A DNA stretch of 64,000 bases from the NCBI GenBank assembly GCA_951406725.2, contig OX597828.1:20770001-20834000 (forward strand), in the 5' to 3' direction. Of this stretch, positions 21,807-53,524 are shown one piece after another; the first letter of the stretch is position 1, and each line of letters opens with the position of its first letter. Position numbers and translations under genes: made by a program. Under the pieces are notes generated by a model. The model was not told the origin of the DNA. It worked only from the letters and a program-made list of their open reading frames with translations, and ran no database searches. The DNA comes from Octopus vulgaris. Taxonomy: Eukaryota.

Positions 21807-21878
21807 CAGCCCTCATCCTGGAGGGACTCTTCAGAGGACTGCCTTGTGCCTGGTCACCAAAACCCTGGTCTCCTGCGG
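21807..21878 (-). CDS. EndoA: Probable alternative cassette exon of endophilin A (72 nt, phase 1-1): AAGDQGFGDQAQGSPLKSPSRMRA
   Basis: cccctctcttaaacag acceptor, CTG|gtaagc donor, frame-preserving, shares FGD..SPxxSPxRMR with the exon at 25122-25199. Confidence 0.75.
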
Positions 21879-22468
21879 CTGTTTAAGAGAGGGGCCGCAC
21901 CAGCGGAAAATGCATTATCATCATCATCATCATCATTATTATAACAGACAGAGACAGGAAAGAGAGTAAAAGGAAAGGAACAGGAAAAAGGAAACAAAAA
22001 GCGAGAAAGACAGACAGACAAAAGTAGAGGAAGGAAGGAAAAGCAAGAAAAAAGGAGAAAGAAAGAAAGAAGGAAAGAAACAGGGTGAATGAAGGAAAAA
22101 AGGAGAAAGAAAGAAAAGGAAGGAAGGAAGAAAGAAAGAGAGAGAAGGAAAGGAGGAAAGAAAAGCAGGAAGGCACACAACAATGAAGAAAGCAAGGAAG
22201 AGAGAAAGAGTGAAAGACAGAATTAAATGAAAGCATAAAAGGAAGAAAGAATGAATGAATGAGAGAGAGAGAAACTGACCTGTGTGTGTGTGTGTGTGTG
22301 TATGTCAACGACAGTATGTATACATCTATGTATGTGTATATGAATGGATAGCTGGGTGTGTGTATATGTGTGTGAGTGCGTGTGTGCTTGAATTGTATAT
22401 ATATTTATTTTTTACATGTGCAATATGTGAGGGTGTGCCAATGCAGGTGGGTGTGAAGGTGTGTGTGA

Positions 22469-22507
<39 letters not shown>

Positions 22508-23959
22508 TAAGTACATATATATATATATATGTGTGTGTGTATGCAAGTGTGTACATAAACACACCTTTGCCAGGTATGTTTGTGATTTTGCAAGTGATGA
22601 ATAACATTAATTTACTCGAAAGTGGAGGCAGGTGGAAAGAAATATAAGGTTGTAATAATCAAAAACAGTAATTAATGTAATGTATTAACTACTACACTAC
22701 ACATAAAATTTACAGGTGTAACATGTATAATCAGGCCATACCAAGGTTTCACATGGAAAACTCAACGGTATGACACTGATATTTATAGATGGCAATTAAG
22801 ATGCTGATAAGAAACACAATATGGATTTAATCCTCAAATTTCCTACACACATATATACATAGTTATACATGTACATATGTATTTTGGTATACGCATACAA
22901 ACATATATGTACACATACATACAAAATATATTTACATATATTAACAAATACATGTAGATACAGTCACAAAAATTACAAGAAAATACGTGTACAAAGTACA
23001 AGTATACGTAGCCAGACAGATACATACACACAAAAAAAATACATGTACATATAAACATACAAATATAATAGATACCAACATGAATATATAGATATATGCA
23101 CATATGCACAGATATGGATACATATATACATATATACATATATACATAATTATATGCAGAAGAAAAATTTAGAAAAGAAACAACAGAGAAGATAAAATGT
23201 GACCCATTAAAATCATATTGGTATGCAATATATATATTTATGTGCATTTAAGAGTATGTATATGTATATATACTACTTTCTCAGTTATACAACTAAAGCC
23301 TCTAATTACATGACTGAAAGTTGTCAGGGTCTCCTTGGTGTTGTGATTTTCAAGATTCTCCAGCAATAAGAAGACTTGTGGGTCAATTCCTGCAGGAAAT
23401 TTTCATCTACTTTCTTTTCCATCTAAAGGGTATTTTTATCTGATATTATGAGCTATTATTTAGCACTTCATTTCAGTAGAATCTCACAAAGTCTAATACT
23501 TTAATTTCTCAGAGCTTCAAATGAATCCAAATGTGTGTGTGTGGATGGAGAGGAGGAGTGCGACGTCCACTTCCCAACCACGGGGTTTCAAGTTGTAGCA
23601 CCTTGGGCAAATGTCATCTAGGCAGAAGCCCCAGACTGACCACAGCTTGGGGAGCAGGTTTGGTAGACAGAAACTGTCTTATATGTATGTATGTGTGTGT
23701 GAGTGCATGCACATGTTTGTGTGTATGTGTTTGTCTTCTTGCATTGACATTGTATGATAGTTGTAAGCGAGCATCATCATCATCATCATACAAGTGGTAC
23801 CAATCATTCCAAATCTTCCATGGAAACACTCCAAGCTAAGTGGGAACATTCACTGGCTTGGAAACAGGTGGTGGATCACTGAGGTACGGAAGAACCTGCC
23901 TTGCCTAATCCTTTCACAGCTGTATAAGAACGGAAAAATGTACATTGACCATCCTGGTC

Positions 23960-24140
23960 CTGCATTAGTTGTGTTCAGATGACCTGCTCAAAAACAGCCA
24001 TTCTTTGATAACCATAGCAGTAGATCACTGGCCAGCTCTTGTTAAACCCACTGGTAATGTCCCACGTAGCGTAAGTACCTTTGCCTTATGATGTTGGGAA
24101 CAGGCAGGAAATCTCCATACAGCCGTTTCTTGATTCCATA
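23960..24140 (-). mobile_element. Decayed non-LTR retrotransposon RT C-terminal remnant
   Basis: LYGDFLPVPNIIRQRYLRYVGH..*QELASDLLLW resembles IRERRLRFAGH..DLLLW motifs. Confidence 0.65.
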
Positions 24141-24348
24141 CAGTTGTTTAAGGATGAGGAAAAACTGAAGGCTACTAGGGGAGATATATATATATTTTTT
24201 TTTATCTAGTTTCATCTCATGAGCTGAGGCCATGCTGGGGCACCGCCATTGAAAAAGTGTGTAAGACAGTGCCAGTGGTTTCAAGGTAGGAAATCTTCGA
24301 TGAGAGTTCAGAGTGAGCGAAGTAACCACGCGGCTAAGCCAACATTAT

Positions 24349-24654
24349 TTACATTATTGTATTATTTACATTTGATGAATATTTGTCCTCATTCTTGTTT
24401 GTTGTTACAACAACGTTTCGGCTGATAGGCAGTGACCTGAATAATAATGATAATAATAATAATATTAATAATATTAATAACATTGAAAAATACCTTGGTA
24501 ATGAGAACCCAGGTTCGAAATTTCCCCCAAGACACCTGATGAAGGCTGGAGGGTGTCTCAGCCGAAACATTGTGTTAACAACTAACAAGATGAGGACAAA
24601 TATCCATCAAATGTAAATAATGTACATAATTCTTCATCTCTTAAATATAGAACT
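24349..24654 (+). mobile_element. Family F copy, 5'-truncated, preceded by an inverted copy of its own 3' tail
   Basis: 24349-24426 is the reverse complement of about 24556-24628; hammerhead motif at 24531-24576. Confidence 0.75.
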
Positions 24655-25121
24655 ATATTAGTGGAGATATGTTATCCACTACCACAACACAAGGAAACAT
24701 TGTCAGTGATCAGTCTCAGTACTGCGTGGTTTGTCCAGTAGGTCCAAGACATTGTCAAATATGACTCCCAATGAATTGTCAAAGGCCATCAATGCACAGC
24801 TCATGTAACTGAAAACAAATTCGTTAAAATGCCAGACCCTTTTTGTGACTTTTGGCCTGTTTTATGGGATGAGTTCTCCAAGATGTGTTTAAGACTGCTT
24901 TTAACATTCAAGTGTAAGGAGGGGAATAAAACAACAAATACATCTAGTTATCTACAAACAACTACATCTATTTGGAGGTTAAGTGAAGGTGCACTCAGCC
25001 AAATGAGATCAGAATGGGAAACATATAATGGGTTTTGTTGGGTTTTTTTTTCCGCCCCCAGTGGTTGGGGGGGAGAGTGCAATTCTGCAGTGCTTTTTGC
25101 AGTGCTTTTGCAGGATCTTAC

Positions 25122-25199
25122 CAGGCCTCATTCGTGTGGGACTTCGCGATGGGCTACTGGTGGCGGACGAAAAATCTCCGAAATCACCGATACCGTCGA
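25122..25199 (-). CDS. EndoA: Probable alternative cassette exon of endophilin A (78 nt, or 84 nt from an AG giving a start at 25205; phase 1-1): VDGIGDFGDFSSATSSPSRSPTRMRP
   Basis: GC/CpG-rich island in AT-rich intron; CTG|gtaaga donor; length divisible by 3 in the required phase; peptide similar to the exon at 21807-21878. Confidence 0.75.
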
Positions 25200-25454
25200 C
25201 TACAACTGGTGTCACAATGTGACAGGAAGAAAATAAAACAAACATGTTCATGAATATGATTACATAACCAATTCAATGTCCATAAGTCAGTGGGGGGGGT
25301 GAAAAACACATAGGCTCTATCTGAACAATAGAGCAGTTACATATTTTATATATATATATCAGTTGGTCAGTATGTTACTGGTTATGACGAATAACAGGTT
25401 AAAATGTTACCATCAGTTTCACATGGACTATTACACTTGGCAATATTCTTTTCT

Positions 25455-33239: not shown

Positions 33240-33306
33240 CTTTCTCCTTCTTCCTTCGCTTGCAGTCATAGTCTAGTCGTCTTCCCGAGAGCTTTTTTCG
33301 ATGGTG
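33240..33306 (-). CDS. EndoA: Endophilin A internal exon (67 nt, phase 0-1): HHRKKLSGRRLDYDCKRRKKEK, basic BAR tip
   Basis: tttctttgcag acceptor, AAG|gtgagc donor; matches HHLKKLEGRRLDFDYKKK of endophilin A; too short for the ORF track. Confidence 0.96.
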
Positions 33307-46256: not shown

Positions 46257-46390
46257 ATTGACTTCTTTCAAATCTTTATTGGCAAGCTGATTCAAGGGAT
46301 CCAAGAAATTCTGTTTAACATTGTCCTCGAGGGCATATTTGATGTCTGCAAGATCTTTGAAGGCTTCCCCAGCTTCACCTAAGCAGGCTC
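46257..46390 (-). CDS. EndoA: Endophilin A internal exon (134 nt, phase 1-0): GACLGEAGEAFKDLADIKYALEDNVKQNFLDPLNQLANKDLKEVN
   Basis: attattag acceptor, gtgagt donor; VKQNFLDPL..KDLKE is BAR helix 2 of endophilin A. Confidence 0.97.
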
Positions 46391-50351: not shown

Positions 50352-50492
50352 CAAATCTATCTTCTCCTAAATCTTTTCCATATTTAATCATGGTTTCTCC
50401 TAATGTTCCTTCTGGTTGAGGATAAACTGAACTCTTTGCTTGGCCCCGAATTTTCGAAAAGGAGTTAAAAGCCATCAGTTTTGCTCTTGAAG
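50352..50492 (-). CDS. EndoA: Endophilin A internal exon (141 nt, phase 1-1): ASRAKLMAFNSFSKIRGQAKSSVYPQPEGTLGETMIKYGKDLGEDRF
   Basis: ttctatag acceptor, G|gtaagt donor; ASRAKL..SKIRGQ..YPQPE matches the endophilin A H1-insert region. Confidence 0.97.
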
Positions 50493-53451: not shown

Positions 53452-53524
53452 CAGGATTAGGTTGCAGGAATTCGTGAGTTTTATTCATGAGATCTGTAAC
53501 CATCATCCCGAAAACATCCACTTT
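53452..53524 (-). CDS. EndoA: Endophilin A internal exon (73 nt, phase 0-1), N-BAR helix 1: KVDVFGMMVTDLMNKTHEFLQPNP
   Basis: ttttccag acceptor and G|gtaagt donor; contains the endophilin LQPNP motif; splices in frame to the next exon. Confidence 0.96.

What the first reader, a model, noticed from the sequence alone, without database searches (positions are those of the whole stretch)
21807..25205. Pair of paralogous cassette exons inserting SPxxSPxRMR into the endophilin A BAR tip
Seen: VDGIGDFGDFSSATSSPSRSPTRMRP and AAGDQGFGDQAQGSPLKSPSRMRA. Both are phase 1-1, both end ATG AGG xCT G|gtaag, and they share FGD and SPxxSPxRMR while differing at many codon positions. Established: the insertion point follows the basic membrane-binding tip between BAR helices 2 and 3; neural tip-region inserts are known in endophilin B1 and BIN1; SPx(K/R) matches proline-directed kinase (CDK-type) sites. 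Inference: old duplicated, possibly mutually exclusive exons adding a phospho-switch to a synaptic-vesicle endocytosis protein.
Basis: partly seen in the sequence, partly recalled or inferred. Interest (0 to 1): 0.75.

Follow-up and report, generated by a model that had tools for sequence, protein, structure and literature searches.

The report
Mix-and-match exons in octopus endophilin tip
An octopus gene for the membrane-bending protein endophilin A splices two related optional exons, a third short one and a 3-base one in varying combinations into one spot, which is predicted to be a floppy loop at the protein's tip where the added serine-proline pairs likely let kinases tune vesicle uptake.

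Summary
Exon A (25205-25122, 84 nt) and exon B (21878-21807, 72 nt) are spliced, phase 1-1, paralogous cassette exons of octopus endophilin A (0 of 5000 peptide shuffles reach their score). They are not mutually exclusive: contigs of runs from three studies join A to B, and other runs show B without A, A without B, or neither. AlphaFold places the insert as a low-confidence loop between BAR helices 2 and 3, behind the basic RRKKEK tip. A, B and C each carry SPxxSP, the +4 spacing of primed GSK3 sites; A and B add CDK5-type basic residues. Other molluscs splice unrelated, SP-poor inserts at this spot; a beetle has SPxxSPxK there. Phosphorylation, neural specificity and function are untested. 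The isoforms are already in public gene models, and BAR-tip cassettes are known in endophilin B1, BIN1 and SNX2. New variant of a known kind.

The parts
53452..53524 (-). Constitutive endophilin A exon (KVDVFG...LQPNP), BAR helix 1
50352..50492 (-). Constitutive exon with the H1 insert (ASRAKL...EDRF); borders read from the context printed
46257..46390 (-). Constitutive exon, BAR helix 2 (ACLGEA...KEVN)
33240..33306 (-). Constitutive exon 'E6' ending in the basic tip RRKKEK; its phase-1 donor opens the 57,669-nt cassette intron. The next constitutive exon 'E7' starts outside the window at G000:C15:20745570
25122..25205 (-). Cassette exon A, 84 nt, 28 aa, with DFGDF and SSPSRSPTRMR
   Evidence: spliced borders in 4 of 4 runs laid; models P0015, P0016
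21807..21878 (-). Cassette exon B, 72 nt, 24 aa, with GSPLKSPSRMR; paralog of A
   Evidence: loose ends and contig lengths; models P0002, P0003, P0004, P0015; B-like P0028, P0031
4454..4474 (-). Cassette microexon C, 21 nt, VSPGLSP (weak donor gtttgt). A fourth cassette, the 3-nt microexon TCG, lies outside the window at G000:C15:20764780-20764778
   Evidence: absent from models P0002 and P0024

Best explanation
Exons A and B are paralogous cassette exons that are spliced independently, along with a 21-nt and a 3-nt exon, into the spot between BAR helices 2 and 3 of octopus endophilin A, where they are predicted to form a disordered tip loop whose serine-proline pairs likely act as a kinase-controlled brake on membrane binding. 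Shown: exon borders, the joins A-B, A-C, E6-B and E6-C, paralogy, and the position against solved endophilin structures. Predicted: disorder of the loop. Inferred: a proline-directed kinase (CDK5 the best fit, SPxR with further basic residues) phosphorylates the second Ser of each SPxxSP and primes GSK3 four residues upstream (in A a third Ser lies at -8). The basic halves of A and B would first add positive charge next to RRKKEK; phosphorylation would reverse it and hinder tip-membrane or tip-to-tip contacts. Splicing would set how many such pairs (0 to 3) each subunit carries. Neural inclusion is inferred only from paralogs.
For: Joins: A-B in X1, X3, X9; A-C-micro-E7 in X15; unbranched E6-C-micro-E7 in X22, X23; E6-B and E6-C side by side in X21, X24 (decoded). 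Position: alignment to mouse/human endophilin A1 breaks exactly at the tip; helices 92-165 and 225-250 flank residues 166-220 with pLDDT under 50. Motifs: 6 of the 8 SP sites of P0015 lie in the insert, as three SPxxSP pairs. What A and B kept since duplication is S-P-x-x-S-P-x-R-M-R, with intervening codons changed. C is the same 7 residues in Octopus, Argonauta and Sepia; B is 23 of 23 identical in Argonauta. A beetle endophilin A has SPYSSPAK at the same spot. Literature: GSK3 needs a priming phosphate 4 residues C-terminal (PMC13229842, passages); CDK5 needs basic residues at +3/+4, CRMP4 site SARGSPTRP (PMC4640224, passages); Cdk5/GSK3 act on dynamin-1 S778/S774 and restrain endophilin-mediated endocytosis (PMC8065113, passages); a tip phosphosite in pacsin blocks tubulation, and endophilin dimers pack tip-to-tip (PMC5487894, passages and section 36).
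Against: No phosphorylation data were seen; SP motifs are common in disordered segments. One of the 2 decapodiform-type B-like exons (P0031, SSPTLRSP) breaks the +4 spacing. Only 1 of 19 distinct tip inserts of other molluscs has an SP/TP, none SPxxSP, so tip cassettes work without the motif. In SNX2 the effect of a near-tip microexon did not depend on its residues (PMC13759335, passages). Exon A differs at 5 of 86 letters in run X15, and the two listed changes alter residues. B's 23 of 23 identity with Argonauta is not unusual against 356 of 381 overall. Tissues of the runs are not given, so neural inclusion is unshown.
Confidence: 0.45

Rival explanations
1. Steric tuning: the exons matter as spacers. 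A longer or shorter flexible loop at the tip changes lattice packing and tube diameter whatever its residues; the SP motifs are incidental or secondary.
For: Bivalves and snails insert unrelated G/S/K/D-rich peptides of 1-18 aa at the same spot (31 of 47 parsed proteins, 19 distinct inserts); a starfish has an optional AG there; 1-residue cassettes exist; SNX2 precedent (PMC13759335).
Against: A spacer need not keep SPxxSPxRMR in both duplicates, VSPGLSP unchanged from octopus to cuttlefish, or the same motif in a beetle.
Confidence: 0.25
2. Partner-binding insert: the loop points away from the membrane and recruits proteins. Exon A carries DFGDF, like the gamma-adaptin-ear ligand of p56 (DFGGF), and could couple endophilin A to AP-1/GGA; or the loop binds dynamin as BIN1 exon 7 does.
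For: DFGDF in A; p56 DFGGF binds GAE domains (PMC13581114, passages); in run X15 the two listed changes give DFGGY, keeping D-F-G-x-aromatic; FG[DE] is kept in A, B and both B-like exons; BIN1 exon 7 enables dynamin-2 binding (PMC7389646, passages).
Against: B and the B-like exons lack the last hydrophobic residue (FGDQ, FGEH); the acidic run that usually precedes such motifs (recalled) is weak; a five-residue match arises easily; no binding was tested.
Confidence: 0.2
3. Tolerated variation: the tip loop accepts any in-frame insert, and these exons drift with little effect.
For: Rapid turnover of tip inserts between mollusc classes; A seen only in Octopus records and coded runs, and changing at amino-acid level.
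Against: B-like and C exons persist in both octopod and decapodiform-type proteins; inclusion differs between samples of one study (X1 against X22 and X23); B-containing paths are as deep as B-less ones in X21 and X24.
Confidence: 0.1

Closest known systems
Endophilin B1 (Bif-1, SH3GLB1) neuron-specific exons 6S/6L and 7
   Same: Several optional exons inside the N-BAR domain, used in combination (none, 6S+7, 6L+7, 7 alone) (PMC10269655, passages); an EndoB exon at the same position in fly and mouse is eMIC/Srrm3-4 regulated (PMC8797185, passages). That these lie at the helix 2-3 tip is recalled.
   Different: Other gene (endophilin B). In this genome the endophilin B tip intron is phase 0, the endophilin A one phase 1, so the exons are not positional homologs. 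Neural specificity is known for B1 and untested here.
BIN1 / amphiphysin 2 exon 7
   Same: Optional exon in the N-BAR domain that changes endocytic function (PMC7389646, passages).
   Different: Single exon, amphiphysin family, binds dynamin 2; no SP pairs reported in the passages seen.
Dynamin-1 phospho-box S774/S778 and CRMP S522 (Cdk5-primed GSK3 sites)
   Same: Same +4 spacing and SPx(R/K) context; same pathway (PMC8065113, PMC13229842, PMC4640224; passages).
   Different: In vertebrates the sites lie on endophilin's partners; the known endophilin A sites are T14, T73/S75, Y315 and Ciona S263 (PMC12457278, passages), none described at the tip.
Pacsin-1 T181 tip phosphosite; SNX2 near-tip microexon
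   Same: Regulation of a BAR protein at or near its tip by phosphate (PMC5487894) or by splicing (PMC13759335).
   Different: F-BAR and SNX-BAR; one site or one 4-aa helical insert, not a combinatorial disordered loop.

Membership tests
Endophilin A (SH3GL1-3/EndoA) | N-BAR domain with H1 insert, closer to endophilin A than B | tested here: met
   PF03114 over cut-off; phmmer 5e-72 to endophilin A1 BAR; Foldseek 1zww rmsd 1.5, endophilin B1 ranks lower
Endophilin A (SH3GL1-3/EndoA) | C-terminal SH3 domain | tested here: met
   exon at G000:C15:20737681-20737872; best SH3 matches are endophilin A
Cassette (skippable) exons | AG/GT borders used in transcripts; included in some, skipped in others; frame kept | tested here: met
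   lengths 84, 72, 21, 3 nt
Tandem duplicated exons | Sequence likeness beyond chance, same phase, same intron | tested here: met
Mutually exclusive exons | Exactly one of the pair per transcript | tested here: not met
   A joined to B in X1, X3, X9; neither in X22, X23; 3,243-nt intron between them
Neural (eMIC/SRRM4-type) exons | Inclusion restricted to neurons | not testable with these tools
   sample tissues are coded
Neural (eMIC/SRRM4-type) exons | UGC near the acceptor and a long AG-free zone | tested here: inconclusive
   no AG in 98 nt before A, B and the 3-nt exon; TGC at -21 only before B; none within 50 nt of A, C or the 3-nt exon; no background was computed
CDK5-primed GSK3 substrates | S/T-x-x-x-S/T-P with basic residue at +3 of the priming site | tested here: met
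   A and B meet both; C has the spacing but no basic residue; P0031 breaks the spacing
CDK5-primed GSK3 substrates | Phosphorylation by these kinases | not testable with these tools
   needs kinase assay or phosphoproteomics
GAE (gamma-ear) ligands | DFGx-hydrophobic motif that binds AP-1/GGA ears | tested here: inconclusive
   DFGDF in A only against p56 DFGGF; binding not tested

The most novel reading that the evidence does not exclude
Coleoid neurons use splicing as a dial (0 to 3 SPxxSP pairs per subunit) to put the Cdk5/GSK3 endocytosis brake, which vertebrates place on dynamin and CRMP, directly on the endophilin A tip; and an SP-bearing tip cassette recurs in, or is inherited by, distant protostomes (beetle SPYSSPAK; an ostracod model with QGSP like exon B), so that the endophilin A tip is an overlooked regulatory site lost or unused in vertebrates.
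Probability: 0.25. Interest if true: 0.65.

Novelty: new variant of a known kind. Interest (0 to 1): 0.42.

Why it matters
Endophilin A is a core synaptic-vesicle recycling protein whose described regulation acts on the amphipathic helices, the linker and the SH3 domain. A natural series of tip-loop isoforms (0 to about 60 residues, 0 to 6 SP sites) gives a ready test of what the BAR tip does in lattice assembly and whether phosphate there switches tubulation. It also adds a concrete case of exon duplication in a cephalopod trafficking gene. The importance is limited: the isoforms already stand in automatic gene models, the principle is known from endophilin B1, BIN1 and SNX2, and no function is shown.

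Tried and rejected
Mutual exclusion: rejected. A NAGNAG acceptor as source of the extra Val before E7: rejected, the E7 acceptor has no AG at -3 and a separate ag|TCG|gtaagc exon exists. Second in-frame acceptors 6 nt inside A and B: present in the sequence, not used in the contigs laid. A third A/B-like copy: none in the window, in 24,430 nt of the intron beyond it (best 33 of 2,193 stretches) or in the genome search. A retrocopy as source of the joined contigs: no intronless copy among 48 matches. Search for short A-bearing fragments in other species: 1 hit of 7 candidates, an O. bimaculoides piece; weak, says nothing on absence. ESM Atlas on residues 140-245: best score 0.81, a lead at most. 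Homology of the beetle insert with A, B or C: not shown (47-78 of 3000 shuffles reach the score). Earlier scan findings: none. Two primary papers on endophilin tip residues were not held, so the membrane role of the basic tip is recalled. No complex prediction was sent: a disordered loop with no named partner.

Full report
Gene. The window holds the middle of an endophilin A gene on the minus strand. A 44-aa exon matches Octopus vulgaris and O. sinensis endophilin A at 100%, and contig C15 has the length given for the O. vulgaris records. Constitutive exons lie at 53524-53452, 50492-50352, 46390-46257 and 33306-33240 (E6); the rest lie beyond the window, E7 at G000:C15:20745570 and the SH3 exon near 20737800. 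The E6-E7 intron is 57,669 nt and phase 1. The protein matches solved endophilin A1 BAR domains by sequence (E 5e-72) and by fold (rmsd 1.5 to 1zww).

Observation. Their likeness is beyond chance: 0 of 5000 peptide shuffles and 0 of 3000 codon shuffles reach the score, and B is the best non-self match to A among 11,716 stretches of the window. The flanks are unalike (14 of 40 on each side), so the duplication is not recent; its date is open.

Splicing. A search with exon A listed 24 runs; 11 of the 19 guessed to be RNA hold all 6 sampled words, in 6 studies; none is on record as RNA. I laid 8 of the 24. On exon A, 4 of 4 runs gave one contig covering exactly the exon, with E6 letters on one side (27 loose plus 2 shared, under the tool's 31-letter bar for a bridge) and, on the other, the start of B in X1 (29 letters), X3 (101) and X9 (122), or C plus TCG plus E7 in X15 (29). 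Only 30 loose letters are shown; the lengths fit B+29 and B+C+29. On E6, with the 4 runs that lack A words, X22 and X23 (same study as X1) gave unbranched contigs of 1,107 and 1,322 nt running E6-C-TCG-E7. X21 and X24 each gave two branches with 30 letters on E6; their mixed consensus is reproduced letter for letter as B-start plus C-start, and lengths fit B+C and C. Public models agree: A+B+C (P0015), A+C (P0016), B+C (P0003, P0020), B alone (P0002); these are annotations of the same genome and not independent. So both, either and neither occur, and mutual exclusion is refuted. Contigs give no inclusion levels, and tissues are coded.

Two more cassettes. C (4474-4454, 21 nt, VSPGLSP) came from the protein records. 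The 3-nt exon TCG lies at G000:C15:20764780 behind a long pyrimidine tract and before gtaagc; it was 1 of 3 candidates in the intron scan and the only TCG. It accompanies C in B-less contigs (X15, X21, X22, X23) and is absent by length from the B-containing contigs of X9 and X21, but an O. sinensis model (P0019) has B, C and the extra Val together, so the coupling is loose at best.

Position. In P0015, A, B and C are residues 161-188, 189-212 and 213-219. The alignment to endophilin A1 breaks at this point, with the target continuous. AlphaFold2 on a 40-row alignment gives helices 92-165 and 225-250 and pLDDT under 50 for 166-220; low confidence is read as disorder, which is a prediction. That the basic residues before the break bind membrane is recalled; the primary papers were not held.

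Relatives. Argonauta has B (23 of 23 identical) and C (P0004). Two unnamed proteins, P0028 and P0031, carry a B-like exon and C; their BAR parts group with Sepia, P0028 being identical to it. P0028's exon scores 76 against B and 68 against A and shares SSPSRSP with A, which fits one ancestral exon. A itself was seen only in Octopus records and coded runs; one search among short fragments found nothing more. Of 85 proteins then held, 68 were parsed: 21 cephalopod-type and 47 others; 31 of the 47 have a tip insert, 19 distinct, 1 with TP and none with SPxxSP (13 fragments and 4 proteins with a variant flank were dropped, the 4 show no SP). Among the best 150 cluster representatives for P0003, 63 were parsed; 61 have a tip of 14 residues or fewer and 1 has SPxxSP. 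That one is a beetle, Dendroctonus ponderosae endophilin A, with ALKGLSPYSSPAKVQ at the same spot in 3 of 3 cluster members. A truncated ostracod model has AWSGSPGFFASLQGSPVH there; it scores against B in 1 of 3000 shuffles, but this is the best of 8 comparisons picked after looking. A starfish has an optional AG at the site. The tip is therefore a widespread splicing hotspot of invertebrate endophilin A, and SP-rich versions are not confined to cephalopods.

Mechanism. Six of the eight SP sites of P0015 lie in the insert, as three SPxxSP pairs; A and B add SPxR with RMR behind it. GSK3 phosphorylates four residues upstream of a primed site (PMC13229842, passages); CDK5 needs basic residues at +3/+4 (PMC4640224, passages); the two kinases act on dynamin-1 S778/S774 and restrain endophilin-mediated endocytosis (PMC8065113, passages). 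Phosphate at the tip of pacsin blocks tubulation, and endophilin dimers pack partly tip-to-tip (PMC5487894, passages and section 36). I therefore favour a phosphorylation-tuned tip loop (0.45). Against it: no phosphate is shown, P0031 breaks the spacing, most other mollusc inserts lack SP, and in SNX2 the insertion and not its residues mattered (PMC13759335, passages). Rivals are a steric spacer (0.25), a partner-binding insert such as DFGDF for gamma-adaptin ears (0.2; p56 DFGGF in PMC13581114, passages), and tolerated variation (0.1).

Known kin and novelty. Endophilin B1 has neuron-specific combinatorial exons in its N-BAR (PMC10269655, passages), with a matching eMIC exon in flies (PMC8797185, passages) and a developmentally switched erp-1 exon in worms (10.64898/2026.09.14.751627, passages); BIN1 exon 7 enables dynamin-2 binding (PMC7389646, passages). 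A 2025 endophilin A review lists phosphosites at T14, T73/S75, Y315 and Ciona S263, and the words 'tip' and 'distal' do not occur in it (PMC12457278, passages). Searches for endophilin with alternative splicing, cephalopod, squid, mollusc or microexon terms (listings only) showed no paper on these exons; subscription journals and bioRxiv supplements were not covered. Verdict: a real, well-supported new variant of a known kind, already present in automatic gene models, with an untested mechanism. Interest 0.42.

Noticed in passing
G000:C2:130705155-130729760 (L010-L012), minus strand: The endophilin B gene has a 24.6-kb phase-0 intron at its BAR tip, with candidate microexons by splice-site scan only: 18 nt (DDAVAK, UGC just upstream) at C2:130708223 and 3 nt at C2:130722767; possibly the counterpart of the conserved neural EndoB exon.
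   Followed up: partly
protein P0031 against P0028: 8 of 12 differences outside the insert are of the kind A-to-G changes give, as expected of a heavily edited cephalopod transcript; no DNA to confirm.
   Followed up: partly
window 25175 and 25172: Run X15 (organism C) reads DFGGY for DFGDF in exon A; one change is A-to-G on the coding strand (editing or species difference unknown).
   Followed up: partly
protein P0102 (Dendroctonus ponderosae) and P0120 (Darwinula stevensoni): SP-bearing inserts at the same endophilin A tip in a beetle and an ostracod; homology or convergence unresolved.
   Followed up: partly
protein P0034 (Bradybaena similaris): An 18-aa tip insert, GVQRIETTGFRRIWNALF, that looks like an amphipathic helix rather than a disordered linker; impression only.
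   Followed up: no
junction of exons A and C (protein P0016): Joining A to C creates RPVSP, which fits the DYRK consensus RPxSP as recalled; B to C gives RAVSP.
   Followed up: no
window 25199-25205 and 21872-21878: Both A and B have a second in-frame AG six bases inside the exon; not used in the contigs laid.
   Followed up: partly
G000:C15:20741120-20741305 (linker exon): The constitutive linker holds DDDGFGDATSSSS, faintly like the FGD...S-rich part of A and B; not tested against chance.
   Followed up: no
window, e.g. 2659, 34680, 40069, 44215, 60061, 62122, 63819: Many copies of an interspersed repeat on both strands of the introns (shared translated stretch), probably an octopus SINE.
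   Followed up: no
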